Shown piece after piece: positions 1 through 61,322 of a stretch of 64,000 nucleotides of DNA (within the stretch, counting starts at the first letter, position 1; the number at the start of each line of letters is the position of its first letter). The notes under the pieces are model-generated. The model was not told where the DNA came from and searched no databases. It was given only the letters and a program-made list of their open reading frames with translations. Made by a program: the position numbers and the translations under genes. Source of the DNA: an uncultured Gammaproteobacteria bacterium (GTDB lineage: Bacteria > Patescibacteriota > Patescibacteriia > Magasanikbacterales > GCA-002688135); contig CAZHVT010000006.1 in the NCBI GenBank assembly GCA_964536205.1, positions 8,623 through 72,622 of the forward strand, written 5' to 3'.

Positions 1-927
1 GAGTTGCCTGTTTTGGGTTGCAAGCTCTTCGTGACTTTGTTCGGGTAGATCGAGCGTTTGTTGTAGCTCTTCTCGTGCTTCCCGAAGTTGATCCAGTGAC
101 TTGCCGAGATCTTCGATCATGCCGGCCATGTCTACTTCATCATCTTCACTCACACTTTCGTCGATACTTGCAGGCACTGGAGTTTCTTGCGCTGGTTCCT
201 GCGGAGGTTCTGGAGTCTCTACCTTCTTTTCTTCCAGTGCTGACTTGTCCAAAACTACATCATCTGCAAGGAATCCTGAAATCGACTCAAGAGTTTGGTC
301 TTTGCCAAGCGACACTCTGCGATATCGACGAGCTGCGTTCTCACTTTGTTTGATGCGGATGAGGCCCATATCCCTCAAAAAGTACAGGTCGCCTCGAAGT
401 GTTGAGGAGGCGACTCGATCTCCGTCACGCTCAAGTCGTTTGTCGATTGCAAGGGCATTTGGAATTACGAGTAATTCCCCAGCTTCCTTGTGCTCATGCA
501 ATAGTTGAACTATCACGCCCAGCACACGGGATCTCCGTTGTGCTGCTTTCGACGCTGGATTGCTTTGTGACGTATCGACATTTGATGTGGTGGACTGTGA
601 TTCAGGTTGGCTGCTGGATCTGTTTGATCCCCGAGCCATAACAATTGCCTTTGACTCATCGACAAGACAAATCGACAGAACCTTTCCAAATTCTGAACCG
701 TTTTGTCGATGAAGTGAAATTGCGCCTTGTTCTTTGAGGTGGCGCACTCGCAACTTCATCATGTCCATGTGATTGAAAGGCTTGTTGGTGCCTTTTCTCG
801 CTTGGATCCGTTCCAGAACGTCTTTTACGGAACCATTGAATTTGTGATCCGGTTGCTTTTTGAGCTCCACAACTACTTCGTTGTAGATGCGCTGTTTGTC
901 TGCATTGCTCAATGTGCGACGTGTCAT
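1..927 (-). CDS. hypothetical protein, 3'-partial (runs off window start); basic N-terminal region, possible winged-helix segment, acidic Glu/Asp-rich C-terminal part
   Basis: Hand translation of the minus strand gives an unbroken frame from an ATG (rc of 925-927, preceded by an AGGAGGA SD) down to position 1. It is absent from the ORF track because it has no stop in the window. Plus-strand ORFs 18-948 are its antisense shadows. Confidence 0.5.
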   Translation of the reverse strand, partial: MTRRTLSNADKQRIYNEVVVELKKQPDHKFNGSVKDVLERIQARKGTNKPFNHMDMMKLRVRHLKEQGAISLHRQNGSEFGKVLSICLVDESKAIVMARGSNRSSSQPESQSTTSNVDTSQSNPASKAAQRRSRVLGVIVQLLHEHKEAGELLVIPNALAIDKRLERDGDRVASSTLRGDLYFLRDMGLIRIKQSENAARRYRRVSLGKDQTLESISGFLADDVVLDKSALEEKKVETPEPPQEPAQETPVPASIDESVSEDDEVDMAGMIEDLGKSLDQLREAREELQQTLDLPEQSHEELATQNRQL

Positions 928-992
928 GAATTTCCTCCGTTGTTGTGACTTGGAATGAACACTCTAGAGCCTAGCATTATGTGTGTTATGTG

Positions 993-1742
993 TCAAGTAT
1001 TGAGTTGGGCTGTTTTAACGCTGTTTTGAGCGAATTCTAACTGCTGTTTTGTGTTAATTCCAATTGCTTGTTTTGGTGGAATTTCTATGGTGTGTACAGT
1101 TTTATGTTGTTGTGAAGCTATCTTGATGAGATCAGTGATGTATAGTTCTGATTGAGCGTTCTGATCTGATAGTTTATGAATGTTTTGATTCAGCCATGCT
1201 GTTTCAAAGAGATATGGTGATGCATTTACTTGTGTTATATCTCGTGTTATTGCGTTGGCATCTTTAAACTCGATGATGCTTGTGACGGTGTTATTTTTTT
1301 TGATTACTCGTCCCCAGTGTTCAAATGTTGCGTACCATTGTTGATAGTGAGGGACGGTTACGGTTCCAATTGTTGTAGTATTTTTGTTGGTTGCTGAAGC
1401 ACAGAATTTTTGAAATGTGTGTGTTTGAAAGAAGGGGTGATCTCCATAACAGACAAGTGTGTATTGGGATGTGATGTGTGGTAGTGCACATTGTAGTGCA
1501 TGACCTGTTCCGCGCGGTTTTTTTTGCGTTGCGTATTTTAAATCACATGGTAGTGTTTTTCTTATTTCGGTCTCGTTATCGCCAACAACAATGAGAGGGG
1601 TGGTGATGGATTGGCATGGTTTTAGTGCATCAATAAGATGTTGAATAATAGGTTTTCCATTTATTGGTATCAGTACTTTTGGGATATCTGATACCATTCG
1701 TGTGCCTTTTCCTGCCGCTAAAATTACTGGTTGTATTAACAT
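993..1742 (-). CDS. sugar-phosphate nucleotidyltransferase, GlmU N-terminal (uridyltransferase)-like domain only
   Basis: Contains LAAGKGTRM (the G-x-G-T-R nucleotide-binding loop), KPRGTGHAL and VCYGDHPF motifs typical of the GlmU/RmlA NTP-transferase fold. At 249 aa it has no left-handed beta-helix acetyltransferase part. Confidence 0.65.
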   Translation of the reverse strand: MLIQPVILAAGKGTRMVSDIPKVLIPINGKPIIQHLIDALKPCQSITTPLIVVGDNETEIRKTLPCDLKYATQKKPRGTGHALQCALPHITSQYTLVCYGDHPFFQTHTFQKFCASATNKNTTTIGTVTVPHYQQWYATFEHWGRVIKKNNTVTSIIEFKDANAITRDITQVNASPYLFETAWLNQNIHKLSDQNAQSELYITDLIKIASQQHKTVHTIEIPPKQAIGINTKQQLEFAQNSVKTAQLNT

Positions 1743-1764
1743 ATGTTTTGTATTTACATATATA

Positions 1765-1793
1765 TTGACATATTTAAATATGTTTGTTAATAT
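1765..1793 (+). promoter_or_regulatory. sigma70-like promoter (TTGACA-17-TAATAT) upstream of the 627-aa gene
   Basis: Hexamers and spacing read directly from the sequence. The intergenic tract is AT-rich. Confidence 0.35.
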
Positions 1794-1857
1794 TAGATGT
1801 GATTGGTGGTGTAATTAACATTGTCAATGTAAGCGTTCATTACAAGGTGAGGGATAC

Positions 1858-3741
1858 ATGGCACAGCGAATATTCATTAGATACCCAGTCGTCAGTGGCG
1901 GTTGGGACTATGTGCAGATTGATCCTGCACGAGCATCGTTGAATATGTTGACTGAGCTTTGGACAAAGGCTCGTCAGCAAGGCGGAGATATCAAGTATGT
2001 ACATGCCTTCGGGTATGAGAATTTGATCAGTAAGCAACACAACACAGATGAGTTGGATGAACTGATTGAGCAGGTTTTACATCCAATGCAAGTTGCGATT
2101 GATGGGAATTCCCCTGAAACATCTGCAACGCTCTCAAGTTTGACAACGGATATTCGTAAGCTGAAAGATGTATTTGCATCGATTGGATCTGGTCAAATAA
2201 AAGATGCCGAGCATAAGCTTCGGGATTTACTGTGGTCTATTCAATCTACAGTCTGTACTATCGCGAGCCTTCTCGAGTTTATTCAGGAAGAGGTTTCTGG
2301 GTTGAACTCCGTAAACCAATCATGGCAGAATGCTTCACAACTTAGTGATGATGCGCGTGGTTGGTATGACGATTGGTCAGAGCAAGCGATGAAGATCATC
2401 GAGTATGTCGGTGCATTGAAAGGGTTTCGTTCGACTATCGAATCGGAAACTCAACGCGCAACAATAGGTAAGCGTCATTTTGACCAAAGTGTAGCAGAGG
2501 CTCAAGTTATTTACTCCGAGTCTTTGTTGTTCCTCGATGATCCTGAATCTTTGGGGCATGACAATTTTTGCGAGCGTGCTCAAGCGTTTAGTGTTGATTG
2601 CTCGAAAGAGGATCGTACTGCGATGGAGCAAGACATTGCGAGTGCTCGTGAGCATATCGCACGATGTCGAGATCTCGCTAAGGCGTTGCACGAAGATTGG
2701 GTCAACGGCCGTACGGTATTGGTTCAGAAATCGGTTCAACTTAATCGAGACATTACTCGATGCGTAAATGCTTTACTGCATTCGCGAAATTCGTTTACAG
2801 GTTTGCGAGATGGTATTTTTGCGGACAAGCCTGCTCCATTCTCACTGAATGACCCTGCAATTTCTGAAGAGGATTTTTGTCTGGCTATGCAGTATGTGGA
2901 TTCATCGGAATGGATTCCAAGCCGCGCAAAAAGTCGCCTTGTTGCGTTAGCTCAAGCACTTCCAGAACATTATGGAAGTGAGCCGGAATGTTCCGCGGAA
3001 TTGGAACGGGCAATGTCATTTGCAATGCAACATATTGAGCGAATTGAATCCGATTGGAGACATGAAGATCAGAAATCAGGTGCAGATGAAAATCAAAGTT
3101 TCGGCTTTGTGATGCCGACGTTTGGTAAGTCTTCGTCATCTGACGATGAAGAAGATGATGACTCGGTTTCAGCTGAATCTCGACCGTCAGCAACTGATCG
3201 TGCAATCATTAAGCCTTCAGCTGCTCAGACGTTAGCTCGTCGCAATGGGAATGGTTCAGGTCAAGATGCTGCTTCTCAAAAAGGTGGTATTGAGGCAACG
3301 ATAGATTTGGAAATATTGTATTCTCGCGCTACGTTTGATCAGGTTCATGATTTGCTTCTGTGTTGTGGGTATGTCATAACGTGCAACGCGAGTGGCATCT
3401 CGCTGAGTAATGCAAATGCGTTGCTCAAAACGGTGCGTAAACTCAACTTGGTTCATCCGCGAATCTTGAATGTTTACTGGGATCGTATGCAGGATTACAT
3501 TGAAGAACCTGATAGATGCACGATTGTACAAGAGCGATCGAATCTGACTCGCATGTGGCGTTCTGCTAGCACTCCTTGGGTTAAGACTCTTCAGCCCATC
3601 AATAAATGGTGTTGGATGAAAGTCAGTCCTTACGCTCGTGAAATGTGCCAGTTTTTGATGGCGAAGTACGGCATTACTGCTGAACAGATTCGTGCAGCCA
3701 AGAAAGACAAGGATTCTGACGAGGGATGGGATCGTCGTTAA
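1858..3741 (+). CDS. hypothetical protein (627 aa), no recognisable domain; acidic Ser/Asp/Glu stretch around residue 430
   Basis: Long ORF with an SD (aaggtgaggg) 4 nt before the ATG. GC is ~48%, higher than the core genes. Confidence 0.6.
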   Translation: MAQRIFIRYPVVSGGWDYVQIDPARASLNMLTELWTKARQQGGDIKYVHAFGYENLISKQHNTDELDELIEQVLHPMQVAIDGNSPETSATLSSLTTDIRKLKDVFASIGSGQIKDAEHKLRDLLWSIQSTVCTIASLLEFIQEEVSGLNSVNQSWQNASQLSDDARGWYDDWSEQAMKIIEYVGALKGFRSTIESETQRATIGKRHFDQSVAEAQVIYSESLLFLDDPESLGHDNFCERAQAFSVDCSKEDRTAMEQDIASAREHIARCRDLAKALHEDWVNGRTVLVQKSVQLNRDITRCVNALLHSRNSFTGLRDGIFADKPAPFSLNDPAISEEDFCLAMQYVDSSEWIPSRAKSRLVALAQALPEHYGSEPECSAELERAMSFAMQHIERIESDWRHEDQKSGADENQSFGFVMPTFGKSSSSDDEEDDDSVSAESRPSATDRAIIKPSAAQTLARRNGNGSGQDAASQKGGIEATIDLEILYSRATFDQVHDLLLCCGYVITCNASGISLSNANALLKTVRKLNLVHPRILNVYWDRMQDYIEEPDRCTIVQERSNLTRMWRSASTPWVKTLQPINKWCWMKVSPYAREMCQFLMAKYGITAEQIRAAKKDKDSDEGWDRR

Positions 3742-3753
3742 TTAGATTTACAG

Positions 3754-3812
3754 GCTCCGACTACGGTCGGAGTTTTTTTAATAAAAAAATATCCCCGACC
3801 GTAGTCGGGGAG
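3754..3812. terminator. bidirectional rho-independent terminator pair between convergent genes
   Basis: ctccgactacggtcggag followed by a T7 run; then an A-run followed by ccccgaccgtagtcgggg for the minus-strand gene. Confidence 0.7.
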
Positions 3813-3816
3813 TGGC

Positions 3817-5871
3817 TTATCGCAACTTGTGCATGTGTTCGTGGAAGATCCGGTTTCCCTTCATTTCCAGGTCTGACATGAGTTGACGAGCTTGATCAGG
3901 CGACATGTGTGCTGCCGCCTCGTCATTTCTTTTGACAGTAAATTCGAAGTGGACGAAGCGAGCGAATTCGCTACAGATGGCACGCCAAATGTAGTTGTGC
4001 AGCGTGTTTGCTTTCTTCGCTTCTTGATAGCCTGGGGCTTTCGTGTTCAAGAGGATTGAGTTAATCGTTCCTCCTTCCACCATCATGATGGGGCACTCTG
4101 CGAGCACACCACCCATGGGGATGTCGTCATAGCGGAAGAAATACGTTTCGTCATCCATGACCATTCCGAAGACTTCTCGTGTGCTCCTGACTTCCTTGAC
4201 CACGATGTCACAAAAGGATTTGTGATCGGGGTTTTCGGAGTCGTATGCGGTGATGCGTACGATGCCAGGTGTTGCAGGCGTGAAGATGACACTGCGATTT
4301 CTGATCGTCATTGTGCCTGATCCGTTCTTGGACCACTTCAATTTTCCTTTCAGCTTGTCGACGTTGCTGGCGGTAACCTGCACAACTTCTGCTGTTGTGA
4401 TGGTTGCGTCAGATGGACTTGTGTGGAAGTAGCGCTGATTCACTACGGAATAGTGAGCCATGTCTGAAAATGCGGTTGAAACGACTTCAGCCACCACGTA
4501 AGCCGGGCCCATTGTCTCTGCTGTCATTCGAATGCCGGTATCAGTCCGTTGCACGTCTGTGCATCCCGACTTTTTGGTATTCCAGTCAATGTCCTTGTGC
4601 TTGATCAATCCTTGATCTCGAATCTCTTTTTTGATGGATGCGGTGATCTCGAATGTTTCACCGACCTCAACTTCTCGAGGGTGCTTCAGTTTGATTGCCA
4701 TGCCGGAAGGCACGTCATCAGGATTGTCTCCAGGTGTTTTGTCATCTGGTTTGACGGGCTTTTTCTTTGACTTGCCGTTGCTCGGAAGATCATTTTCGTC
4801 GATGTCCCAGAAGTCTTTGATCTTTGACATCAACTTCATGAATTCTTCTTTGTCATCACTGTTTTCGTCTGTCGGGGCTTCGAAGCCCAGATCTCGACGA
4901 ACAGCAGGCGCCAGTCGATTGAGTAGGCGGATGAATGGCAGTGTCAGTGGTTCGTTGGCGATAGAGCCAGCGATTCGTTCTCGACTTTCGGTTGTGTGAT
5001 TTTCAAACATCGCACAGCTGATGTGTCCAGCAACTTCGGGCAGCAGATAGATGGGATCCAGTGCGTATCCATCCATGTTGCGGCATGCTGTAACGAGCGT
5101 TCCGATTTTGCCTTCTCCGATGTCCTTTCCTGTCACTCGAACGTACCTGCGTGGACTGCTCTTCTTGAGCTTTGGACGCATGATGTCGATGCTGACAGTT
5201 CCGAGTCGCGGGTGAACTTCGACGAATTCGAATCGTTTTCCGATCAGATCGACGTCAGGGAGTTCCTCGATTTCGTCAATCGAGATCTTGTATTTCAGAT
5301 TGCTCGGCAGGCGAAGTGCGAGTTCTTGGGCTAGTCGATTACCTCGACCATCTTTGAACAGCTTGATTTTTTCCGGATGCAGATCGAAAATGATGAGCGT
5401 ACCGGTTTCGGAATCGTACGGCCACGTTTTATCGTTTTTCGGGAGAGCTTCTGGCCTCAACGCAATTTTGTTGATTGCGTTTTTACCACACTCACTTGTT
5501 TTCAGTGTGAATCTCACGACTGTGTCAGGAAGTTCCTTAGAGACGGTGACAACTGTCACGCTTGTGGACAGCGACATGAGCACCTGTTTGATGCCTGTCG
5601 CGTATTTGCCACGTTTCCCTTTGAGGATTTTCGAACGCGGTTTTCCGATTGAGACGAATTGATTTCGATTTGCTTCACCCATGCCTTCCCCGTCGTCGAG
5701 GATCATGAATTGCTTTCGATTATCGGTTCGGATCCGAATGGATTGTGCGTCCCAGTCCAAAGCATTCTTGATGAGCTCAATGATGCAGTGGATGATATCC
5801 TTTCCATCGAAGATTTCGTGAATGATATCGGGCTCAATCGTGGCGATAATGTCAGGTACTACTTGACTCAT
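3817..5871 (-). CDS. GHKL (Bergerat-fold) ATPase domain protein, MORC/MutL/Hsp90/TopoVI-B-like N-terminal ATPase, long C-terminal extension (684 aa)
   Basis: N-box ELIKNALDWDA and G1-box ILDDGEGMG lie near the N-terminus, with GKYATGIKQ as a G2-like motif. The SD is taggaga, 5 nt before the ATG. It sits 12 nt downstream of the partner gene (operon). Confidence 0.7.
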   Translation of the reverse strand: MSQVVPDIIATIEPDIIHEIFDGKDIIHCIIELIKNALDWDAQSIRIRTDNRKQFMILDDGEGMGEANRNQFVSIGKPRSKILKGKRGKYATGIKQVLMSLSTSVTVVTVSKELPDTVVRFTLKTSECGKNAINKIALRPEALPKNDKTWPYDSETGTLIIFDLHPEKIKLFKDGRGNRLAQELALRLPSNLKYKISIDEIEELPDVDLIGKRFEFVEVHPRLGTVSIDIMRPKLKKSSPRRYVRVTGKDIGEGKIGTLVTACRNMDGYALDPIYLLPEVAGHISCAMFENHTTESRERIAGSIANEPLTLPFIRLLNRLAPAVRRDLGFEAPTDENSDDKEEFMKLMSKIKDFWDIDENDLPSNGKSKKKPVKPDDKTPGDNPDDVPSGMAIKLKHPREVEVGETFEITASIKKEIRDQGLIKHKDIDWNTKKSGCTDVQRTDTGIRMTAETMGPAYVVAEVVSTAFSDMAHYSVVNQRYFHTSPSDATITTAEVVQVTASNVDKLKGKLKWSKNGSGTMTIRNRSVIFTPATPGIVRITAYDSENPDHKSFCDIVVKEVRSTREVFGMVMDDETYFFRYDDIPMGGVLAECPIMMVEGGTINSILLNTKAPGYQEAKKANTLHNYIWRAICSEFARFVHFEFTVKRNDEAAAHMSPDQARQLMSDLEMKGNRIFHEHMHKLR

Positions 5872-5883
5872 TTTTTTCTCCTA

Positions 5884-7308
5884 TTATTGTTGCCGTTCTT
5901 CATTGGGTTGACTTGCGAGATGTTCGCGCGAACTATCAAATAGCTCGCTTAGTTTTCCTGGGTATTCGTACGAGAATTGACGAATTGCCAATTCAAGTTC
6001 AGCCAGCTCTAAATCCATTTCATCTCGGAGTTTGGCGCGAATGCGCGTATCCTTGATTTGTGAACATACGTTTATCAATCCTCTGGTGATTTGTACTTGT
6101 GTCTTGAGGTCCTCAATAAACGATGTGCTTGGAGTTATGTTAAGCGATGCAAATCCGTTTTTAGTGAGACATAGCTCTACACCTGTTGGTGATGGGCTTC
6201 CGCCAATACTTTCCAGAGAAACCTTTTTTGTGTTTTTCTTGATTCGAGTTGGACGACTTGACGGTTTCGGTCTCTTGTCACCGTTAGAGCCTATTCTTGG
6301 TGATCTTGTGTTGCTCCGTTTCTTTTTACCCATTACGGGCATTTCGAACTCGGTGTCAGCTTCGCTTTTCGCCTCAGTTTTGGGTTCTGGTTCTTCTGGC
6401 TCTTTTGGAGTTGGTTTTTGTGTTTCTTTCGACAGACTTACAACAGGTTCTGATGGCTCAGTTTTTTGTGGTTCTGAATCAGACTCGACTGTGCGAAGAT
6501 ATTCTTCTGCACTGGCAATCATGAGTTCAATATGCTCAACAGAAGTGCGACCCTTCAAACCGTTATTGTAGGTCGTAACATGTACACCACACGCATGAGC
6601 TCTTAGGGGAGCCATGGTGATATGTGCCTTCATCCGATTGACAAGAACCTGCAATCGCAATGATGCTTCTTGTCGTTGTGATTTGACCTCTGTAAGTCGT
6701 TGTTCAATTAAGGTGTTGATTTTTGGATCTGTGATTGTGCTGTCGATTCTTTCGGCGATTTTTGGATCGGCGAGTTTCGCGATAGCCTCTTTTTTGGTTG
6801 CAAGTGCGTTTCGAACAATGTCTCGTAGATCTTCATCGAAGATTTTGCTGAATTCTTCGTGATTTGCAAATCCGGCAAAGTGTACGATGTGGATGTCCAT
6901 CAGATTGAATACACGCGCAACTGTATCGAGGTCGAAGTACGCAAGCGTGAGATAGTTTTGCGAAAGATTGTTCGAGAGCAGTGTGATTTTTTGCTCGAGC
7001 TCATTTTGTCCGAATTTTCGGCAGAAGTTTTGGAATGATTCGCCTTTTGTGACTACGGTTAAGCCGTTGTACAGTCGTCGAATCATGTTTCCAGAACAGT
7101 TGCAATAGCGAGCGAATTGTCGAAGCGTATTATGATTTCCCTTTGAAACCTTTTTACCCTTCCCATGCCTATCTCGGAATTTCGCATATTCGTCTATGCA
7201 TAACTGTCGAAGCTCGCGTTGTAACGGAATCATCTCCCTAATTTTGAGATGCGTCACAACCACATCTCGTTGCATTGCAGCTACTTTATGCGCATCGTAT
7301 TTTTTCAT
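5884..7308 (-). CDS. hypothetical protein, operon partner of the GHKL ATPase; Lys/Pro/Glu-rich low-complexity linker in the C-terminal half
   Basis: ORF 5884..7347. The start is reassigned to the internal ATG at 7308 (MKKYDAHKV...) because it has a good SD (gagaggtaag) whereas the first ATG has none. Confidence 0.55.
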   Translation of the reverse strand: MKKYDAHKVAAMQRDVVVTHLKIREMIPLQRELRQLCIDEYAKFRDRHGKGKKVSKGNHNTLRQFARYCNCSGNMIRRLYNGLTVVTKGESFQNFCRKFGQNELEQKITLLSNNLSQNYLTLAYFDLDTVARVFNLMDIHIVHFAGFANHEEFSKIFDEDLRDIVRNALATKKEAIAKLADPKIAERIDSTITDPKINTLIEQRLTEVKSQRQEASLRLQVLVNRMKAHITMAPLRAHACGVHVTTYNNGLKGRTSVEHIELMIASAEEYLRTVESDSEPQKTEPSEPVVSLSKETQKPTPKEPEEPEPKTEAKSEADTEFEMPVMGKKKRSNTRSPRIGSNGDKRPKPSSRPTRIKKNTKKVSLESIGGSPSPTGVELCLTKNGFASLNITPSTSFIEDLKTQVQITRGLINVCSQIKDTRIRAKLRDEMDLELAELELAIRQFSYEYPGKLSELFDSSREHLASQPNEERQQ

Positions 7309-7410
7309 CTTACCTCTCAATATTTCGTTGTAATGATCTGGAGCCATGAAAGGCTATTCAGGAATCAATAGTGGTATGTATCCCTGAATAACCTTCATTG
7401 CGTTCGATTA

Positions 7411-7439
7411 ATACTAGCTAGATTTAGTTCAATTGTCAA
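7411..7439 (-). promoter_or_regulatory. sigma70-like promoter (TTGACA-17-TAGTAT on the minus strand) for the 2-gene GHKL operon
   Basis: Reverse complement of 7411-7439. It is followed by a ~65-nt leader containing a 7-bp hairpin. Confidence 0.4.
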
Positions 7440-7582
7440 GTGTGTTCGTGTCAGCTGTTGCATCTTGTTTAATTTTTGAATTTGCCTGTAAATTTAGTCT
7501 TTTTTACTTAGGATGGGTATCTTGACTTAGCATGGTCATTGTGATAATTTCATGGCAATGTTCATTACAACAAGAGGTACAC

Positions 7583-8749
7583 ATGCAAGAATCAAATGCA
7601 AAGCGTGTTGTCCGCAGAATGTTTTATCGTGAATGTGTTGGTCAGTGGCTTGATCCGCATGAAATTGAGAACGGTAATATTCTGATTTTGATGGGAGATG
7701 AGCCATTGGAAATTCCTTACATTCAGGAATTGGGCTTTGATCCATTTAGTGTGTGTTCGGTTGAGAGAGATGAGGATATTTTTCGTAAGCAGCGGCGTAT
7801 GGTTGATGGGGGCGAAATTCAGGTTTCGCTATACTTTGGTCAGATGAAACGCTATCTCATGAAAATGCTTCATTGTTACAAGAAATTTGTTGTGCTGAAT
7901 TTGGACGTAGAGGGGAGCTATCGTTTCCAGCTTGATCCAGCTATGACATCTGTTGTGCAGTTTTGTGCAGCAAATCCTCGTACGGTTGTGGCGACGTATT
8001 CGTCAATTGGCCGAAATTTCAACACAGTGTGGGAAGGCATTAAGGCCCTCACATTACTTGTGTGGCTTGCACCAAAAAAGACACGTCAGCTGATGGCGAG
8101 TTTGGTTCATGCCTACACTGAGGCAGGGTGTACACAGCCGATTCGATTTGCTCTACGTGATGTGTTTTGGCTGGTGAGTCAGATTGAGCATCTTGTGCAG
8201 GCGTCAATGATTAAAGGTTGGATTTCGCGAGAAGAGTACGATTGTTTCAACCAAGGCTATGCCCTCTTGTGGAACTATGTGTTCACAAAGAGAAAGAAGA
8301 CGCTTCGGCTCCGCGACATTTACACCTTTGTTTCTTCTTGGACGCAGATTGAAGATGAAAATTCTTGTCTTCGAGTTCTGCCGTGTATGCATATGGGCAT
8401 CACAGATTTGATGCATGTATTATATCGCGCTCAGCGTCCTTGGATACAACGTTGTTACTTTACTCGTTATGAGGTTGCATCTCCATCTCGTCGACGAACT
8501 GTTCGAACCCATCTGAATCGATTGTGTGACTTGTTGATTTCTCGTCCTTTCATTTATGTCGATGAGGATGGTACTCGTCAGGATATTGATATTTCGTCTG
8601 TTCCTGAATGTGGTGTGGATGGATTCATTATTTGGAAAAATCCGCAGCGAAAGCAAAATTTGTATACAATGTTTCGGCCGCGTAGGTTGCGACCGGAGAA
8701 GTTTGGGCATGGTTCACATGCAGTAGAGTCTAGTTTAGGTCAACAGTAA
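7583..8749 (+). CDS. hypothetical protein (388 aa), first gene of the divergent operon
   Basis: The ORF is trimmed to the ATG at 7583, which is preceded by a gaggt SD. No recognisable motifs. Confidence 0.55.
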   Translation: MQESNAKRVVRRMFYRECVGQWLDPHEIENGNILILMGDEPLEIPYIQELGFDPFSVCSVERDEDIFRKQRRMVDGGEIQVSLYFGQMKRYLMKMLHCYKKFVVLNLDVEGSYRFQLDPAMTSVVQFCAANPRTVVATYSSIGRNFNTVWEGIKALTLLVWLAPKKTRQLMASLVHAYTEAGCTQPIRFALRDVFWLVSQIEHLVQASMIKGWISREEYDCFNQGYALLWNYVFTKRKKTLRLRDIYTFVSSWTQIEDENSCLRVLPCMHMGITDLMHVLYRAQRPWIQRCYFTRYEVASPSRRRTVRTHLNRLCDLLISRPFIYVDEDGTRQDIDISSVPECGVDGFIIWKNPQRKQNLYTMFRPRRLRPEKFGHGSHAVESSLGQQ

Positions 8750-8761
8750 GGAGGTTGAGTA

Positions 8762-9391
8762 ATGAGTGCTTTGCAAGATCGATTTTGGAAGGGAGGGCAA
8801 TTGACTCCTGTTGGTGTGCGTTTCGTTCGTGAATGCACAGAGGCTGGGGAGGATGTAGATCAGATTTTGTCGCGCATGGGGAGTAATTGTCCTAGAAATG
8901 CGCGAGTCATGATTGGTTTGTATGTAAGGACTACTGGCAGTAATGGTGGGTCTGCGGATACAAGTTCGTTGCCGAATATGTATGTGGCGAATGGAAAGCT
9001 AACTAAGGTTGGTAAGGACCGAGTGCATGCGTTGGCCACAAAAAGCGCAACCATCACTGCGCAAGAGATTCTCGATGAAATGGGAATTACGGAGATTTCC
9101 GAACGATCGATGCGTGCGTTTTTGGCGCATGCTCCGTCGAGACGTCCTCCGAAGAAAAAGAAGAAGTCTCGTAAAAAGAGACCTTCGGCAGTTTCAGGAG
9201 CTTTTGTAGTTAACGGTAGGCTGACTGCGGCTGGAAAGGTGCATATGTATGAGTTGGCCGCAAAAAGCGCAACCATCACTGCGCAAGAGATTCTCGATGA
9301 AATGGGAATTACGGAGATTTCCGAACGATCGATGCGTGCGTTTTTGGCGCATGCTCCGTCGAGACGTCCTCCGAGAAAAAAGAAGAAATAA
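8762..9391 (+). CDS. hypothetical repeat protein (209 aa): three ~70-aa repeats each ending in a basic PPKKKK/PPRKKK tail
   Basis: Strong SD (aaggagg). The two C-terminal repeats are identical over 38 aa (AKSATITAQEILDEMGITEISERSMRAFLAHAPSRRPP). Confidence 0.6.
   Translation: MSALQDRFWKGGQLTPVGVRFVRECTEAGEDVDQILSRMGSNCPRNARVMIGLYVRTTGSNGGSADTSSLPNMYVANGKLTKVGKDRVHALATKSATITAQEILDEMGITEISERSMRAFLAHAPSRRPPKKKKKSRKKRPSAVSGAFVVNGRLTAAGKVHMYELAAKSATITAQEILDEMGITEISERSMRAFLAHAPSRRPPRKKKK
9040..9375 (+). repeat. perfect 114-bp direct repeat (9040-9153 and 9262-9375, period 222 bp) inside the 209-aa gene
   Basis: Identical nucleotide strings read at both positions. The flanking parts of each unit have diverged. 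Confidence 0.85.
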
Positions 9392-9396
9392 AACAT

Positions 9397-9452
9397 CGCA
9401 TCTACGGATGCGTTTTTTTAATTAAAAAATCCTGCGCCTCGTGGGGGCAGGA
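9397..9452. terminator. back-to-back terminators (cgcatc-tacg-gatgcg + T7 for the plus strand; atcctgc..gcaggat preceded by an A-run for the minus strand)
   Basis: Stem-loops with U-runs on the appropriate strands between convergent genes. Confidence 0.65.
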
Positions 9453-9458
9453 TTGTGT

Positions 9459-9953
9459 CTACAGATCTCTGTTGAATCTTTCCACTCGATCTTCAAGAAT
9501 GCGATAAAGATGTGTGGGTGTTAGGCCTTGGATATCTTCGAATTGTTCGAGAATGCTGCATGTTGCATCGAATCGTTCGAGTGCATCTTCGTCATTGATT
9601 TCTGCGCGTGCTGCGTCTATATCGTATTCAACTTCTTCTGTTCCAGCATGTTCGATCATGTCTGCGATTTGCAGGATGGCGAGGCACATTTCTTTGTCCA
9701 TCAAGCCGGCGCTGACAAACATCCATTCCATCTGATCCATTGCGTCTTCGTGTTGAGCTTTACAGGCCTGTGAGACTACAACGCCCATAAACATCCAGCC
9801 CATGAAATCGCATGTGTCCACTTCTTCTCGAGTTAATCCACGTGACCAGAATTCTGGATCATGTTGTGTAGGATCAGATTCTTCGTCTGAAGTCAGCAGG
9901 GCCAACAGTTTTTCAAAAAATTGTTCACTTAGGTCTTCGGTTTTCAGATCCAT
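9459..9953 (-). CDS. small highly acidic hypothetical protein (164 aa, rich in D/E)
   Basis: The ORF is trimmed to the ATG at 9953, with an SD (aggaga) 6 nt upstream. Its composition is strongly acidic. Confidence 0.55.
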   Translation of the reverse strand: MDLKTEDLSEQFFEKLLALLTSDEESDPTQHDPEFWSRGLTREEVDTCDFMGWMFMGVVVSQACKAQHEDAMDQMEWMFVSAGLMDKEMCLAILQIADMIEHAGTEEVEYDIDAARAEINDEDALERFDATCSILEQFEDIQGLTPTHLYRILEDRVERFNRDL

Positions 9954-10092
9954 CAATTTTCTCCTTTAACTGGTTTTTTTGACCAAGTGCACTATAGTAG
10001 CATATTTTTAGTGTGCGTCAAGGGTGTTGGTATTTTTGGTGGTCATATGTTGTCTGATAAATTATACTGTATTTTGTCTATAATGTAGTTGT

Positions 10093-11862
10093 ATGAAACA
10101 TCGACTTTATCATAAGTCTCGCCGCCGGAAAGATGGTTTTCGCGCGCCAACTTCCACAACACTTCGGATTTCGATTTTTGGTGGGTTTATTGGTTTGTTT
10201 GTCACGCTTATTATTATTCGACTTTTTATTCTTCAAGTAATTGATATGAGTGTGTATCGACAGATGGCGTTTGGTGCGCAGAATTTGTCGGCGCAGTTGG
10301 ATGCTGTTCGTGGTGAGGTGTTTATGCGCTCTGTCCGTGATGGTGAATTGTCTCCATTGATATTGAATGAGGATCGTTTTTTGGTTTTTGCTGATGGTCG
10401 TCGATTGGAAGATCCATTTGCTACTGCGAGCCGCTTGGCAGAGATTATGAATGTTTCAGATGAGGAGGAAGTTGATTTGAAAAATAAGATGTCAGAAATT
10501 GGTTCGGATCCATATGAACCTTTGTTTAAATCTGTGAGTGAATTTGAGGCTGATAAGATTCGTGATGAGGATTTTTCCGGAATTGGTTTTGTGCGAGAGC
10601 CTCATCGATACTATCCAGAATCTGTGAGTGCATCGCATCTCACCGGATTTACGCAAATTAATGATGATAATGTTCGAGTGGGTCAGTATGGTTTGGAAGG
10701 GTATTTTGATCGAATTCTTTCTGGGCAAAGCGGAACGCTGTCTGGTGAGCGAGATCCGTTTGGAGCGTGGATTCCATTGTCCGAGCGATCTATCGAGGCT
10801 GCGAAAGATGGTCCGCGAATTATTACGACAATTGACCCAGCGATTCAGAAATTCGGATGTGATGTGTTGATTGAGGATATGCGTGAGTTTGAGGCGCGTA
10901 GTGCAACGCTTATTGTTATGAATCCTGAGACTGGCGAAATTCTCGCGATGTGTAATGTCCCTCATTATGATCCAAATAATTATCGGAATGTTGATGATAT
11001 TTCTGTTTTTAATAACTCATCGATTTTTACTCCTTATGAACCAGGATCTGTTTTTAAACCGATCACTATGGCGGCGGCATTGGATACAGATAAAGTTGAG
11101 CCGCAAACGACTTTTTATGATGAAGGTTTTGAAATAGTTGATGATTTTACGATTCGCAATGCAGCTGAAAAAAAATACGGTTTGTCCACCATGCGAGAAG
11201 TTTTAGTCGAGTCGATTAATACAGGTGTTATTTTTGCAGCGCGAAAAGTTGGACGTCATGATTTTGCAAAGTATGTTGAGCAGTTTGGTTTTGGGCGTGT
11301 GACCGGTTTAGAGTTGGATAGTGAAGTTACTGGAACGATCGAGAATGTGTATCGGAAGGGAGAGGTTTTTTTGGCGACGGCTTCGTTTGGGCAGGGAATT
11401 ACATCTACTCCAATGCAGCTGATCATGTCATATTCTGTTTTGGCTAATCATGGGAAGTTGCTGAAGCCTACGATTATTCATTCATTTGAATATGCTGATG
11501 GATCTGTTGAGACATTTGAACCGCAGGAAATTCGACAGGTTGTTTCATCGCGGACAGCTTCTCAAGTATCGTCTATGCTAGCTTCTGTTATAGAGGATGG
11601 TCATTCCACTCGAGCTGGAGTTGATGGATATTTGATTGGGGGGAAAACTGGAACTGCGCAAATTGCGGATGAGAGTGGTGGATATGGTGAAGAGTTTAAT
11701 CATACATTTATTGGATATGGGCCTGCTGATGATGCGAAATTTGTGATGTTAGTGAAATTTGAGAACCCGAATGAGCGATTTGCAGCTTCTACAGCAGTTC
11801 CTACATTTGGCAAAATTGCTGCGTTTTTGGTAGAGTATTTGGAGTTAGTACCTGATTTATAG
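10093..11862 (+). CDS. penicillin-binding protein, class B transpeptidase (FtsI/PBP2-like)
   Basis: SVFK (SxxK), SIN (SxN) and KTGTA (KTG) active-site motifs. N-terminal membrane anchor. Confidence 0.85.
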   Translation: MKHRLYHKSRRRKDGFRAPTSTTLRISIFGGFIGLFVTLIIIRLFILQVIDMSVYRQMAFGAQNLSAQLDAVRGEVFMRSVRDGELSPLILNEDRFLVFADGRRLEDPFATASRLAEIMNVSDEEEVDLKNKMSEIGSDPYEPLFKSVSEFEADKIRDEDFSGIGFVREPHRYYPESVSASHLTGFTQINDDNVRVGQYGLEGYFDRILSGQSGTLSGERDPFGAWIPLSERSIEAAKDGPRIITTIDPAIQKFGCDVLIEDMREFEARSATLIVMNPETGEILAMCNVPHYDPNNYRNVDDISVFNNSSIFTPYEPGSVFKPITMAAALDTDKVEPQTTFYDEGFEIVDDFTIRNAAEKKYGLSTMREVLVESINTGVIFAARKVGRHDFAKYVEQFGFGRVTGLELDSEVTGTIENVYRKGEVFLATASFGQGITSTPMQLIMSYSVLANHGKLLKPTIIHSFEYADGSVETFEPQEIRQVVSSRTASQVSSMLASVIEDGHSTRAGVDGYLIGGKTGTAQIADESGGYGEEFNHTFIGYGPADDAKFVMLVKFENPNERFAASTAVPTFGKIAAFLVEYLELVPDL

Positions 11863-11867
11863 GTTGT

Positions 11868-13157
11868 ATGAAAAATATTATCCAGAAAATCTTGAGGATG
11901 TACGCGCGGTTGTTATTAAAGAAGTATCAACCTCGCGTGATTGGTATTACAGGTTCTGTTGGAAAGACGTCTGCTAAGCAAGCTATTTTGGCTGTTCTTG
12001 CTGATCAATATAGAATTCGTGGAACGATCAAGAATTATAACAATGAGATTGGAGTACCGCTTACCATTATTGGAATGAAGTCTGGTGGACGATCTTTGTT
12101 GAAATGGTTGATGATTTTTTTGCGTGCGAGCTGGATGTTGGTGAAACGAGATCCGAATTTTTCCGAAATGTTGGTTTTGGAAATGGGTGCTGATCGTCCG
12201 GGTGATATTGCGTATTTAATGGAGATGGCTCCTGTTGATATGGGTGTGATTACAGCGATCGGTGAGGCTCATTATGAATATTTTAAAGATGTAAAAAGTA
12301 TTAAGAAAGAGAAGGGGATGATGGTGACGAATTTGTCAGAGGGCGGGATTGCGATTTTGAATGTTGATAATGATCATGCAGCGAGTTTGGTTGGTGATGT
12401 TGCTGGTAGGGTTGTTACATATGGATTTTCTTCAGAGGCTCATGTTCGAGCTTCAGATGTGTCGATTGCGTATCAAGAATTGAATGGACGTTCATTTCCT
12501 ACGGGCGTTCATTTTAAAATTGCATATGAGGGTGCGACTGTTCCAATATTTTTGCCGGGTGTGTTAGGTTCTCCGCATATGTTGGCTGCGCTTGCTGGAG
12601 TTGCGGTTGGTGTTGCGCATGGAATGAATCTACTTCAGATTGCAGAAACACTGCGAAAATTTGAGCCGCCGTGTGGAAGAATGAGAATTTTGCGTGGTGT
12701 AAAAGAAACGATTATTTTGGATGATACCTATAATGCGTCGCCTCTTGCGATGATTATGGCTTTGGATGCGATGCGTGATATCGATTTGAATGATGGTGCT
12801 CGGCGTTATGCAGTTTTGGGAGATATGTTGGAGCTTGGGAAAATTACGCGTGGTGCGCATGAGGATATTGGACATCGATTGCAAGCATTTAATGTTGATT
12901 ATTTGATTACTGTGGGAGAAGCTGCTAAACATATTGCCGAGGCAGCGAGTGCGCATGGGTTTGATGAGGATCGAATTGCGAGATTTGATGATGCGGAAGC
13001 TGCGGGAAAATATTTGGAGGATAGAATTCATCCCGGAGATGTAATGTTATTTAAGGGTTCGCAAGGTGTTCGTTTGGAAAAAGCAGTTTTGGAAGTGATG
13101 GGTGAGCCGATGCGAGCGGATAAGTTGTTGTGTCGGCAAGATGAAACGTGGAGTTAG
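11868..13157 (+). CDS. murF: UDP-N-acetylmuramoyl-tripeptide--D-alanyl-D-alanine ligase
   Basis: Mur ligase P-loop GITGSVGKTS and DDTYNASP motif. It lies directly after the PBP gene, as in dcw clusters. Confidence 0.85.
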   Translation: MKNIIQKILRMYARLLLKKYQPRVIGITGSVGKTSAKQAILAVLADQYRIRGTIKNYNNEIGVPLTIIGMKSGGRSLLKWLMIFLRASWMLVKRDPNFSEMLVLEMGADRPGDIAYLMEMAPVDMGVITAIGEAHYEYFKDVKSIKKEKGMMVTNLSEGGIAILNVDNDHAASLVGDVAGRVVTYGFSSEAHVRASDVSIAYQELNGRSFPTGVHFKIAYEGATVPIFLPGVLGSPHMLAALAGVAVGVAHGMNLLQIAETLRKFEPPCGRMRILRGVKETIILDDTYNASPLAMIMALDAMRDIDLNDGARRYAVLGDMLELGKITRGAHEDIGHRLQAFNVDYLITVGEAAKHIAEAASAHGFDEDRIARFDDAEAAGKYLEDRIHPGDVMLFKGSQGVRLEKAVLEVMGEPMRADKLLCRQDETWS

Positions 13158-13258
13158 ATAATTACCAATGACCAATGTCGGAGTCTCCCTAGGATGAGAG
13201 ACGAATCTATGGATTATCGCTTTACGATACATTCATTTGAAAATTGAAAATTAGTTCT

Positions 13259-61321: not shown

Positions 61322-61322
61322 A

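What the first reader, a model, noticed from the sequence alone, without database searches (positions are those of the whole stretch)
1..9956. GC-elevated ~10-kb block of lineage-specific genes centred on a MORC-like GHKL ATPase two-gene operon
Genes in 1-9956 run at ~45-50% GC against ~37-40% for the flanking core genes (PBP, murF). The block holds a 627-aa ORFan, a 474-aa ORFan that precedes and is probably co-transcribed with a 684-aa protein, a divergent operon (388 aa + 209-aa repeat protein), and a 164-aa hyper-acidic protein. The 684-aa protein has an N-terminal Bergerat-fold ATPase (ELIKNALDWDA, ILDDGEGMG), the MORC/MutL/TopoVI-B arrangement rather than a histidine-kinase one. Prokaryotic MORC-like GHKL ATPases occur mainly in phage-defence and conflict systems, so this may be an undescribed two-component defence or chromatin-type module. 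No integrase is visible.
Basis: partly seen in the sequence, partly recalled or inferred. Interest (0 to 1): 0.7.

Follow-up and report, generated by a model that had tools for sequence, protein, structure and literature searches.

The report
CPR-specific MORC-like ATPase four-gene cassette
The flagged block holds a real MORC/MutL-type ATPase, but it belongs to a fast-evolving cassette of four to five genes (methyltransferase-fold protein, DNA-binding partner, ATPase, large helical protein) found only in ultra-small CPR bacteria; it matches no described defence system and its function is untested.

Summary
The 684-aa protein has an N-terminal GHKL ATPase of the MORC/MutL type: Pfam HATPase_c_3 E=6e-13, and best PDB profile hit MORC2 at 4e-10.

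Two points need correcting.

**GC contrast.** It is modest: 43-49% in the block against 42±3% in the rest of the window. PBP2 and murF are at 42-43%, not 37-40%. A low-GC core gene (glmU-N-like, 993-1742) sits inside the block.

**Unit size.** The unit is not a two-gene operon. Four families recur together in at least 11 independent Patescibacteria loci with different flanks:
- B: the 474-aa protein with Xre-type HTH.
- C: the GHKL protein, with Ig-like domains and a C-terminal domain.
- D: the 627-aa helical protein.

The C family has about 100 clusters at 50% identity. Cassette proteins diverge 2-4 times faster than neighbouring PBP2/murF. The cassette is absent from that locus in two relatives. 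No nuclease, helicase or integrase is detectable, and there is no phage or plasmid copy. The window protein has no PADLOC hit, though some relatives weakly match Tiamat TmtA.

Best reading: a new paraMORC-type, methyltransferase-linked system acting on nucleic acid. A defence or silencing role is plausible but unproven.

The parts
1..927 (-). First 309 codons of a 399-aa ORFan with a wHTH-like segment and a C-terminal coiled coil. It is GC-elevated (48%) but is not part of the conserved cassette.
   Evidence: Full gene is in L003 14945-16144. No Pfam hit. Sub-threshold NCBIfam hits to a phage wHTH family and to SMC-like coiled coil. No homologue in the other cassette loci.
993..1742 (-). Core gene inside the block: a 249-aa sugar-1-phosphate nucleotidyltransferase resembling the N-terminal half of GlmU. 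GC is low (38%, GC3 0.28).
   Evidence: Pfam NTP_transf_3 at 2e-22. NCBIfam glmU at 3e-55 over model positions 4-239 of 452. GC.
1858..3741 (+). D: a 627-aa, mostly helical protein with an acidic low-complexity linker and a conserved C-terminal domain. It is convergent with C and forms its own transcription unit.
   Evidence: Homologues lie convergent to the GHKL gene in L001, L007, L012, L014, L016, L017/18, L019 and L022. No significant Pfam or PDB match. Promoter-like site at 1765-1793.
3752..3811 (.). Pair of convergent intrinsic-terminator-like hairpins between D and C.
   Evidence: + 3752-3775; - 3811-3792. Inverted repeat I1.
3817..5871 (-). C: a 684-aa MORC/MutL-like GHKL ATPase. Residues ~1-235 are the GHKL domain. 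Residues ~236-340 are a conserved middle domain with invariant G282 and R297. A charged linker follows, then two Ig-like beta domains (~390-560) and a conserved C-terminal domain (~565-684).
   Evidence: HATPase_c_3 at 6e-13. Profile against PDB: MORC2 4e-10, MORC3, MutL/PMS2; residues 420-584 resemble an Ig-repeat surface protein. Motif conservation. The family has 100 clusters at E<1e-30. The AF2 model is unusable except for the beta domains.
5884..7308 (-). B: a 474-aa basic protein (pI 9.2) with Xre-type HTH module(s), a PEK-rich linker and a conserved ~110-aa C-terminal domain. It lies 12 nt upstream of C.
   Evidence: Always immediately upstream of C. Family members hit HTH_31 (1.5e-5), HTH_26 and HTH_3. 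Weak HipB/HigA-like PDB hits. Alignment A6 supports M14 as the start.
7411..7439 (-). Promoter-like site for the B-C unit, in the 235-nt divergent intergenic region.
   Evidence: 10 of 12 consensus matches. This is a consensus match only.
7583..8749 (+). A: a 388-aa protein with a class-I (Rossmann-like) SAM-methyltransferase fold that carries a long helical insert. The invariant motif N-L-D-V-E-G-S-Y sits at the motif-IV position.
8762..9391 (+). A': a 209-aa very basic protein (pI 10.5) made of HTH-like units with poly-K tails. The last unit was duplicated recently. In other genomes the same unit is fused to the C-terminus of A.
   Evidence: Fusion seen in L001 7159-8622, L012 10001-11398 and P0007/P0009/P0010. 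183-nt repeat at 89% identity. Single unit in L006. Weak repressor/HTH hits only.
9397..9412 (.). Bidirectional terminator-like hairpin between A' and the acidic-protein gene.
9459..9953 (-). A 164-aa hyper-acidic protein (pI 4.07). It is restricted to this lineage and is not part of the conserved cassette.
   Evidence: The only homologue is in the syntenic L006 (51% identity). The gene in the same position in L010 is an unrelated lipoprotein. Composition.

Best explanation
The core of the block is a conserved cassette, specific to Patescibacteria (CPR), in three adjacent transcription units:
- A + A': a methyltransferase-fold protein with an HTH-like DNA-binding unit.
- B + C: an Xre-HTH adaptor with a MORC/MutL-like GHKL ATPase.
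- D: a large helical protein.

I read it as a new paraMORC-type, methyltransferase-linked system that acts on nucleic acid. Most likely it is a self/non-self or silencing system.

Proposed mechanism:
- A, targeted by A', uses SAM to mark the cell's own DNA.
- B binds DNA through its HTH modules and recruits C through its conserved C-terminal domain.
- C dimerises on ATP binding and clamps or compacts DNA, as MORC and MutL do.
- D acts as scaffold or effector.
- Because no nuclease or helicase is detectable, the output is more likely trapping or silencing of unmarked DNA than cleavage.

Shown:
- The gene set and its co-inheritance.
- The GHKL identity, with intact catalytic motifs.
- The methyltransferase fold of A, the HTH in the B family and the A-A' fusion.
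- Fast divergence and patchy presence.

Inferred: the substrate (DNA rather than RNA), methyltransferase activity, the protein contacts, the role of D, and any role in defence.
For: **Co-inheritance.**
- B, C and D occur together, in the same relative order, in every complete locus recovered.
- A occurs in most of them.
- No other family recurs beyond close relatives.
- The flanking housekeeping genes differ: PBP2/murF; gatB/miaA; RNase HII/NusA/H+-PPase; smpB/IF3; dnaE/ftsW.

**Fusion.** The A' unit is fused to A in several genomes.

**C.** HATPase_c_3 in 69 of 71 members. The nearest solved relatives are MORC2/3 and MutL/PMS2. The ATP-binding and catalytic residues are nearly invariant, and so is a basic residue, R297, in the next domain.

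**A.** A confident AF2 model with a class-I methyltransferase fold. S59/E61, G86 and N106-D108-E110-G111-Y113 are invariant.

**B.** Xre-type HTH hits in family members. A, A' and B are basic.

**Theme.**
- paraMORC GHKL ATPases are typically linked to methyltransferases in R-M-like operons (PMC2292703).
- The nearest non-family GHKL recovered, L008, sits next to an N6-DNA methylase (PMC8011034).
- Of 71 family members, 22 weakly match Tiamat TmtA, 5 match MzaB and 2 match a type II REase model.
- The window protein's GHKL part resembles BbrUII/HgiDII restriction enzymes at 1.4e-8.

**Evolution.**
- Identity to syntenic L006 is 87-90% for PBP2/murF but only 44-69% for A/B/C.
- L017-L019 and L022 show the same pattern.
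- The cassette is absent at the PBP2-murF locus in L023 and L024.
- The family has about 100 clusters at 50% identity. PBP2 alone gives more than 3,300 clusters at 90% identity among the 8,000 candidates scored.
- Third-position GC deviates from the host.
Against: - No nuclease, helicase, TIR or other effector domain was found in any of the four families.
- The window proteins have no PADLOC hit.
- The cassette is never next to known defence or mobile-element genes. It sits among cell-wall and translation genes, and stays near PBP2-murF in four related genomes, which looks like stable vertical inheritance.
- A's best structural match is a tRNA methyltransferase (Trm1), not a DNA methyltransferase, and A lacks a glycine-rich SAM loop.
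- A is missing from some loci: L022, L017-L019 and L015.
- The S5/transducer domain that makes GHKL proteins of this class active machines could not be demonstrated.
- Nothing here was tested experimentally.
Confidence: 0.35

Rival explanations
1. A lineage-specific chromosome-biology module rather than immunity. B, A' and D would bind the nucleoid, C would act as an ATP-driven DNA clamp or compactor, and A would be a regulatory methyltransferase. The role would be nucleoid organisation, gene silencing, or coupling of the chromosome to cell-wall growth and division in CPR cells.
For: - The cassette lies between the mreBCD-PBP and PBP2-murF clusters in the window's organism.
- It lies next to PBP2-murF in L006, L021 and L022, near a murF homologue in L016, and directly after ftsW/rodA in L014.
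- It is stably inherited in the same neighbourhood across genomes down to 54% PBP2 identity.
- It has no mobile-element genes and no nuclease.
- Its proteins are soluble, basic and HTH-rich.
Against: - It is absent from that locus in L023 and L024.
- The family is rare relative to core genes.
- It diverges 2-4 times faster than its neighbours, which is unusual for a core cell-biology machine.
- In other lineages the flanks are unrelated to the cell wall.
Confidence: 0.25
2. An RNA- or protein-directed module. A would be a Trm1-like tRNA/rRNA methyltransferase. C would be an Hsp90-like GHKL remodeller of an RNP or protein client. B would be merely its transcriptional regulator.
For: - The N-L-D-V-E-G-S motif resembles the D-L-D-P-F-G-S motif of Trm1. 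That comparison is from my own knowledge and is a lead only.
- HtpG/Hsp90 appear among weaker GHKL hits.
- Xre-type HTH proteins are often simple regulators.
Against: - The GHKL profile is far closer to MORC and MutL (4e-10 to 1e-6) than to HtpG (1e-4).
- B keeps a conserved C-terminal domain and is strictly co-oriented with C. That looks more like a subunit than a regulator.
- A' and B carry multiple DNA-type HTH units.
- Housekeeping RNA methyltransferases do not usually evolve this fast or occur this patchily.
Confidence: 0.12
3. Cargo of a decayed mobile element or prophage. The GC-elevated ORFans would be foreign DNA inserted between cell-wall operons, with no current cellular role beyond their own maintenance.
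For: - Third-position GC is higher than the host's in most loci.
- About 12.7 kb is inserted relative to the contiguous mreBCD-PBP-PBP2-murF arrangement of L023.
- Several lineage-restricted ORFans lie in the block: the 399-aa and 164-aa proteins.
- One weak phage-family hit: phrog_6203 at 2e-9 over the GHKL part.
Against: - No integrase, transposase, replication or structural genes, and no flanking repeats.
- No match in 50,697 phage or 72,556 plasmid records, nor in IMG/VR contigs.
- The inserted stretch also carries greA, a glycosyltransferase gene and a glmU-like gene.
- The ATPase motifs are intact across 71 diverged members, which argues for purifying selection on function.
Confidence: 0.08

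Closest known systems
Prokaryotic MORC / paraMORC GHKL ATPases of restriction-modification-like operons (Iyer, Abhiman & Aravind 2008, PMC2292703)
   Same: - The GHKL (HATPase_c_3) domain is N-terminal, with all ATP-binding motifs intact.
- The nearest solved relatives are MORC2/3 and MutL.
- The gene is linked to a methyltransferase-fold gene and to HTH proteins.
- Distribution is sporadic.
   Different: - No SF2 helicase, RE-fold/HNH/Vsr nuclease or DNA-methylase Pfam domain lies in the neighbourhood.
- The S5 domain and the MORC-specific motif are not demonstrable.
- C carries two Ig-like domains and its own C-terminal domain.
- The partners A, B and D are new families.
- The cassette is restricted to CPR.
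Tiamat (TmtA) single-gene anti-phage system, and Shedu type I-D / paraMORC3 (GHKL + DUF4263 nuclease, e.g. VcSduA, PMC12137116)
   Same: - 22 of 71 family members give weak hits to PADLOC TmtA models, best 6e-11.
- Both have an N-terminal GHKL ATPase on a ~650-700-aa protein.
- VcSduA needs its GHKL glutamate for defence (PMC12137116).
   Different: - The window protein does not hit TmtA even at E<=0.1.
- No PD-(D/E)xK or DUF4263 domain was found in C in 71 members.
- One sub-threshold SduA_C hit in one D homologue lacks conserved catalytic residues.
- Tiamat and Shedu are single genes, whereas this is a four- to five-gene cassette.
BbrUII/HgiDII-family type II restriction enzymes (NCBIfam NF050001) and MzaB of the MZA system
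   Same: The GHKL part (residues 30-185) aligns to positions 25-188 of the 659-position BbrUII/HgiDII model at E=1.4e-8. Overall protein length is similar. Five family members weakly hit MzaB.
   Different: The score is 34 bits against a family cut-off of 550. Nothing beyond the GHKL domain aligns. No cognate DNA methylase of a known family is present.
Trm1 (tRNA m2,2G26 methyltransferase) and class-I SAM methyltransferases, for protein A
   Same: - An acidic residue ends strand 2.
- A conserved D-x-x-G-S-type motif follows strand 4.
   Different: - Sequence identity is about 10%, with no sequence-level match.
- There is no glycine-rich motif I.
- A 110-residue helical insert is present.
- A is linked or fused to an HTH-like unit and to a GHKL operon, not to tRNA-modification genes.
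HATPase_c_3 + HEF_HK + HATPase_c 'two-component-like' paraMORC relatives (PMC8011034)
   Same: These are the nearest non-family GHKL proteins recovered (L008/L009, 30-34% identity over the GHKL domain). They are ~700 aa long and lie directly downstream of an N6-DNA methylase.
   Different: They have a second, C-terminal HATPase_c and different partners (a 222-aa protein and an MBL hydrolase). They come from Acidimicrobiia, and B and D are absent.

Membership tests
GHKL (Bergerat-fold) ATPase superfamily, HATPase_c_3 branch | Motifs I (E-x-x-x-N), II (D-x-G-x-G), III (G-rich lid) and IV (T) in N-to-C order; Pfam PF13589 above its gathering score. | tested here: met
   PF13589 at 49.4 bits against a cut-off of 25, and 69 of 71 relatives hit it. 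E32, N36, D59, G61, G63, G93 and T109 are conserved in 67-71 of 71 members.
MORC family proper | An S5-fold (transducer) domain directly after the GHKL domain that supplies a conserved basic residue. | tested here: inconclusive
   No S5-type Pfam family (Morc6_S5, DNA_mis_repair and similar) hit in 71 members at E<=0.01. The AF2 model of C has pLDDT 42 and is unusable there. A conserved ~100-residue domain follows the GHKL domain, with invariant G282 and R297 in 70 of 71 members. R297 could be the basic finger.
MORC family proper | The MORC-specific G-h-X-h-h-p-X-X-R-h-l motif in the S5 domain (PMC2292703). | tested here: inconclusive
   Two segments have the G-(7)-R spacing: L-G224-x-V-x-h-E-L-Y-R232-P (G 64/71, R 53/71) and G282-x-I-x-x-x-F-L-[RK]290 (G 71/71, basic 39/71). 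Neither fits the hydrophobic positions well, and their structural location is unknown.
MORC family proper | Closest sequence relatives are MORCs rather than other GHKL families. | tested here: met
   Family profile against PDB: MORC2 4e-10, MORC3 4e-8, MutL/PMS2/MLH1 5e-7 to 3e-6, HtpG 1e-4, GyrB 1e-3. Only residues 28-121 align.
paraMORC-type R-M-like system (PMC2292703) | Conserved neighbourhood with a DNA methylase plus a nuclease and/or an SF2 helicase. | tested here: not met
   A methyltransferase-fold gene (A) is linked, but it is not a recognised DNA methylase. No nuclease or helicase domain lies in or next to the cassette in any locus.
Tiamat (TmtA) | Match to a PADLOC TmtA model, and a single-gene system with a GHKL domain and a PD-(D/E)xK nuclease (the nuclease is stated in bioRxiv 10.1101/2024.10.26.620412; the GHKL domain is recalled from memory). 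| tested here: not met
   The window protein has no TmtA hit at E<=0.1. 22 of 71 relatives have weak hits, best 6e-11; the region matched is not reported. No PD-(D/E)xK signature is conserved: P278/E279 are variable and the C-terminal domain has no D...(D/E)xK.
Shedu type I-D / paraMORC3 | A C-terminal DUF4263 (SduA_C) nuclease domain on the GHKL protein. | tested here: not met
   No SduA_C hit in 71 C-family members. There is one sub-threshold hit (19.9 bits against a cut-off of 27) in one D homologue out of the 10 D-family sequences scanned. It falls in a helical region with no conserved acidic or lysine residues.
Class-I SAM-dependent methyltransferase (protein A) | Seven-stranded Rossmann-like methyltransferase fold. 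| tested here: met
   [not shown]
Class-I SAM-dependent methyltransferase (protein A) | SAM-binding motif I (G-x-G-x-G-type loop) and catalytic activity. | tested here: inconclusive
   Motif I reads L-L-G-D-E-P, with a single Gly. The acidic residue after strand 2 (E61), G86 and N106-D108-E110-G111-Y113 are invariant. SAM binding and activity cannot be tested with these tools.
Genomic island / integrated mobile element | An integrase or transposase, flanking direct repeats or a tRNA att site, and compositional deviation. | tested here: not met
   There is no integrase or transposase and no flanking repeats. The tRNA-Glu 3'-end repeats at 13314-13564 are local and have no distal copy. Only the compositional deviation is present.

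The most novel reading that the evidence does not exclude
The cassette is a nuclease-free immune or silencing system. A methyltransferase-fold enzyme marks self DNA. A MORC-type ATPase, loaded by an HTH adaptor, then clamps and compacts unmarked invading DNA. That would be a bacterial counterpart of eukaryotic MORC/DNA-methylation silencing, and possibly informative about its origin, and it would be found in CPR bacteria with minimal genomes.
Probability: 0.12. Interest if true: 0.85.

Novelty: new variant of a known kind. Interest (0 to 1): 0.55.

Why it matters
Prokaryotic MORC/paraMORC ATPases are thought to be the ancestors of eukaryotic chromatin-silencing MORCs. Only nuclease-fused forms (Shedu I-D; Tiamat's domain make-up is partly from memory) have any experimental support.

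This cassette pairs a MORC-like ATPase with a methyltransferase-fold protein and DNA-binding partners, with no detectable nuclease. It occurs in bacteria whose reduced genomes keep few accessory genes. If it proves to be a defence or silencing system, it would add a new mechanism: clamping rather than cutting. It would also give function to four protein families that currently carry no name or annotation in the sources searched.

If it turns out to be a cell-biology module, it would be a rare handle on CPR chromosome organisation.

Either way, the family definitions here give a concrete target for experiments: 71 aligned C sequences and at least 11 loci carrying B and C, with D and usually A wherever the contig reaches that far.

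Tried and rejected
1. **AF2 of the GHKL protein.** A 3-sequence alignment gave pLDDT 42, unusable for the middle and C-terminal domains. I submitted it before the exhaustive search showed that a 71-sequence alignment was available, and both AF2 jobs were then spent.
2. **Foldseek afdb50.** This library was not available.
3. **Single-sequence and 3-sequence PDB searches of C.** They gave nothing or only weak MORC2 hits. The 71-sequence profile was needed.
4. **Hidden nuclease.**
   - The SduA_C hit in one D homologue was rejected. It is below the cut-off, seen in one of the 10 D-family sequences scanned, in a helical region with no conserved catalytic residues.
   - A 'P278-E279...E295-x-R297' PD-(D/E)xK-like reading of C's middle domain was rejected because P278 and E279 are variable.
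   - The 'V-H-x-L-x-x-N' stretch in C's C-terminal domain does not fit HNH spacing (my own reading).
5. **Mobile-element tests.** No flanking repeats were found. The tRNA-Glu 3'-end repeats are local only. Phage, plasmid and IMG/VR searches were empty.
6. **Extra cassette members.**
   - The 164-aa acidic protein has a homologue only in the syntenic L006; the gene in that position in L010 is an unrelated lipoprotein.
   - The 399-aa protein has no homologue in any other genome's locus.
7. **High GC3 as an expression signal.** Rejected: rpoA and rpsI have the lowest GC3 in the window.
8. **Antisense ORFs over C.** The long ones in L002 and L019 are probably by-products of high GC3. The window has no continuous antisense ORF.
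9. **Metagenome scan with the 71-sequence alignment.** A 14-sequence subset worked.

Full report
**1. What is in the sequence**

- D: 627 aa, 1858-3741 (+).
- C: 684 aa, 3817-5871 (-).
- B: 5884-7347 (-).
- A: 388 aa, 7583-8749 (+).
- A': 209 aa, 8762-9391 (+).
- An acidic 164/165-aa protein, 9459-9956 (-).

- 1-927 (-) is the first 309 codons of a 399-aa ORF that runs off the window.
- 993-1742 (-) is a 249-aa nucleotidyltransferase matching the N-terminal half of GlmU.

B and C are 12 nt apart. Terminator-like hairpins separate D from C (3752-3811) and A' from the acidic gene (9397-9412). Promoter-like sites precede D and B. That gives three transcription units: D, B-C and A-A'. All eight proteins lack transmembrane-type hydrophobic segments. 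A, A' and B are basic, and the small protein has pI 4.07.

**2. Composition**

- Block genes have 43-49% GC, with GC3 of 0.40-0.56. The glmU-like gene is the exception at 38%.
- The other 44 ORFs in the window average 42.0±3.3% GC and GC3 of 0.36±0.08. Mann-Whitney p is about 0.01.
- The deviation lies at third codon positions. GC1 and GC2 do not differ.
- It is not an expression signature, because rpoA and rpsI have the lowest GC3 in the window.

**3. The GHKL protein (C)**

- Pfam HATPase_c_3 scores E=6e-13, above the family threshold.
- An exhaustive HMMER search found 372 relatives at E<=1e-3 and 100 at E<1e-30. These are 50%-identity cluster representatives. Most of the best 150 listed are 630-730 aa and match end to end. 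The word-indexed search had found only three.
- In a 71-sequence alignment the catalytic Glu, the Mg-binding Asn, D-x-G-x-G, the lid glycines and the motif-IV Thr are conserved in 67-71 sequences.
- That profile's best solved relatives are MORC2 (4e-10), MORC3 and MutL/PMS2/MLH1. HtpG and GyrB follow. Only residues 28-121 align.
- Residues 420-584 resemble Ig-repeat surface proteins. These are also the only parts of the failed AF2 model with moderate confidence.
- Between the GHKL domain and a charged linker lies a conserved ~100-residue domain with invariant G282 and R297 in 70 of 71 sequences. It could be the S5/transducer domain with its basic finger, but neither Pfam nor the model can show that.
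- 'MORC-like GHKL' is therefore justified. 'MORC family member' is not established.

**4. The unit is larger than two genes**

I fetched the contexts of relatives of C, A and PBP2. HMM scans of those loci and all-against-all BLAST then identified the recurring families.
- B is always immediately upstream of C, and D is always convergent downstream. This holds in every locus with enough sequence: the window with L003-5, L001, L007, L012/13, L014, L016, L017/18, L019 and L022.
- In L015 a B-like gene, C and an 870-aa convergent gene take those positions.
- A is adjacent in the window, L001, L002, L006, L010/11, L012/13, L014, L016 and L020, and on one JGI contig. L007 carries only a marginal A-like ORF of 563 aa (E=3e-4).
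- The HTH-like unit of A' is fused to the C-terminus of A in L001, L012 and three database proteins.
- Apart from housekeeping flanks shared between a few loci, no other gene family recurs.
- Named hosts are a Parcubacteria MAG and a Saccharibacteria MAG. The window's own PBP2 is closest to Magasanikbacteria-type Patescibacteria.
- The flanks differ:
  - PBP2/murF
  - gatB...miaA
  - RNase HII/NusA/H+-PPase
  - smpB/IF3/L20
  - dnaE/ftsW...L25/purA

**5. The partner proteins**

- **A.** AF2 with 9 sequences gave pLDDT 82 and pTM 0.83.
  - No sequence-level match exists.
  - The invariant residues sit where methyltransferases bind SAM and substrate: E61 after strand 2, G86, and N106-L-D108-V-E110-G111-S-Y113 after strand 4. 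Motif I has only one glycine.
- **B.** Family members hit Xre-type HTH families, with HTH_31 at 1.5e-5. All share a ~110-residue C-terminal domain.
- **D.** It is helical, with no significant match.
- No nuclease, helicase or other effector domain was found in any of the four.

**6. Evolutionary behaviour**

| Comparison | Housekeeping identity | Cassette identity |
|---|---|---|
| Window vs syntenic L006 | PBP2 90%, murF 87% | A 58%, B 44%, C 69% (N-terminal part), A' 68% |
| L017 vs L019 | H+-PPase 87% | B 57%, D 50% |
| Window vs L022 | PBP2 and murF 54% | C 29%, B 28%, D 22% |

- The cassette therefore diverges several times faster than its neighbours.
- In the window's clade it stays near PBP2-murF while moving around:
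  - directly upstream in the window and L006
  - 9.5 kb upstream in L021
  - directly downstream in L022.
- Two relatives at 47-48% PBP2 identity have no A, B, C or D within 10 kb of PBP2.
- One of them, L023, has mreBCD-PBP-PBP2-murF contiguous. The window's organism has about 12.7 kb inserted there, and that stretch also carries greA, a glycosyltransferase gene and the glmU-like gene.
- So the cassette is neither a clean island nor a universal module.
- There are no integrases and no flanking repeats. Phage, plasmid and IMG/VR searches found no copies.

**7. Comparison with known systems**

- PADLOC gives nothing for the window proteins.
- Of the 71 C-family members, 22 weakly match Tiamat TmtA models (best 6e-11), 5 match MzaB and 2 match a type II REase model.
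- NCBIfam aligns the GHKL part to BbrUII/HgiDII restriction enzymes at 1.4e-8, far below the family cut-off.
- The nearest non-family GHKL proteins, from Acidimicrobiia (L008/9), have the described HATPase_c_3...HATPase_c architecture and sit next to an N6-DNA methylase (PMC8011034).
- The literature links paraMORC ATPases to R-M-like operons with methylases, helicases and nucleases (PMC2292703). It shows that a GHKL-DUF4263 fusion, VcSduA, defends against phage (PMC12137116).
- Full-text searches found no description of this cassette.

**8. Interpretation**

- The best-supported reading is a new, CPR-restricted variant of the 'paraMORC with methyltransferase' theme. It would be a multi-subunit machine acting on nucleic acid, in which A/A' modify, B targets, C clamps using ATP, and D is scaffold or effector.
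- Fast divergence, patchy presence and deviant codon composition favour a conflict (defence or silencing) role.
- The lack of any effector, the housekeeping neighbourhoods and the locally stable inheritance favour a cellular chromosome-biology role.
- I put these at about 0.35 and 0.25. An RNA/protein-directed reading gets 0.12 and mobile-element cargo 0.08.

**9. Unexplained**

- C has higher GC3 than its co-transcribed partner B in 11 of 11 loci. The extremes include 0.83 against 0.68 and 0.70 against 0.46.
- C also exceeds the flanking genes in 9 of 11 loci.
- The elevation is uniform along the gene.
- Transfer of the whole cassette cannot explain a difference within one operon.

Noticed in passing
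window 13258-13564: The 3' end of tRNA-Glu(CTC) begins 2.2 tandem copies of a 115-nt unit at 98% identity. Each unit recreates a T-arm-like segment and the tRNA's terminal 21 nt. No other copy exists in the window, so it does not delimit the block. It may be a scar of repeated integration or excision, or of slippage.
   Followed up: partly
C genes in the window, L001, L006, L007, L010, L012, L014-L017 and L022: The GHKL gene has higher third-position GC than the co-transcribed B gene in 11 of 11 loci, and higher than flanking genes in 9 of 11, by up to +0.39. The elevation is uniform along the gene. It is not an expression-type bias, because rpoA and rpsI have the lowest GC3 in the window. Unexplained.
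   Followed up: partly
window 50827-51387, 51543-51998, 61122-61643, 41880-42188 (-), 25911-26648 (-): Further GC3-rich ORFs (GC3 0.45-0.59 against a background of 0.36) with no Pfam hit. These may be other lineage-specific or foreign genes, or non-coding features. The 51-52 kb stretch has the highest GC in the window (0.52).
   Followed up: no
window 8983-9387: A 183-nt segment of the 209-aa gene is duplicated at 89% identity with 222-nt spacing. The orthologue in the syntenic Parcubacteria contig L006 has a single unit (136 aa), so the duplication is recent.
   Followed up: yes
L023 (GCA_039738915.1) 5576-13155 compared with L003 2715-22055: This works as an 'empty site'. A relative has mreB-mreC-mreD-PBP-PBP2-murF-murB contiguous. 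The window's organism has about 12.7 kb inserted between the two PBP genes: greA, DUF2304, a GT4 gene, an 89-aa ORF, the 399-aa ORF, the glmU-N-like gene and the cassette.
   Followed up: yes
window/L006/L021/L022 (PBP2-murF), L016 10512-11855 (murF-like), L014 4559-5656 (ftsW/rodA): The cassette lies next to cell-wall or division genes in several independent loci. This could be chance in small genomes, or a hint of a functional or regulatory link.
   Followed up: partly
L002 1660-3858 (-) and L019 7995-9986 (-): Long ORFs of 732 and 663 aa run antisense across the whole GHKL gene and are similar to each other. They are probably a by-product of high GC3 in the sense frame. The window has only short antisense ORFs.
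   Followed up: partly
L008 8709-13669 (Acidimicrobiales MAG): An outgroup system with an N6-DNA methylase, a 708-aa protein carrying an N-terminal HATPase_c_3 and a C-terminal HATPase_c, a 222-aa protein and an MBL-fold hydrolase. The GHKL protein has the domain order (N-terminal HATPase_c_3, C-terminal HATPase_c, upstream methylase) of the described HEF_HK-type paraMORC relatives; HEF_HK itself gave no Pfam hit.
   Followed up: partly
window 993-1742: The glmU-like gene encodes only the uridyltransferase half (249 aa) and lacks the acetyltransferase left-handed beta-helix domain. Its GC is among the lowest in the window.
   Followed up: no
L010 633-2089 and L012 5155-8906: In some genomes B, C or D are split into two adjacent ORFs: B 197+263 aa, C 178+479 aa, D 325+232 aa. 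These are either real gene fission at domain borders or frameshift errors in the assemblies.
   Followed up: no
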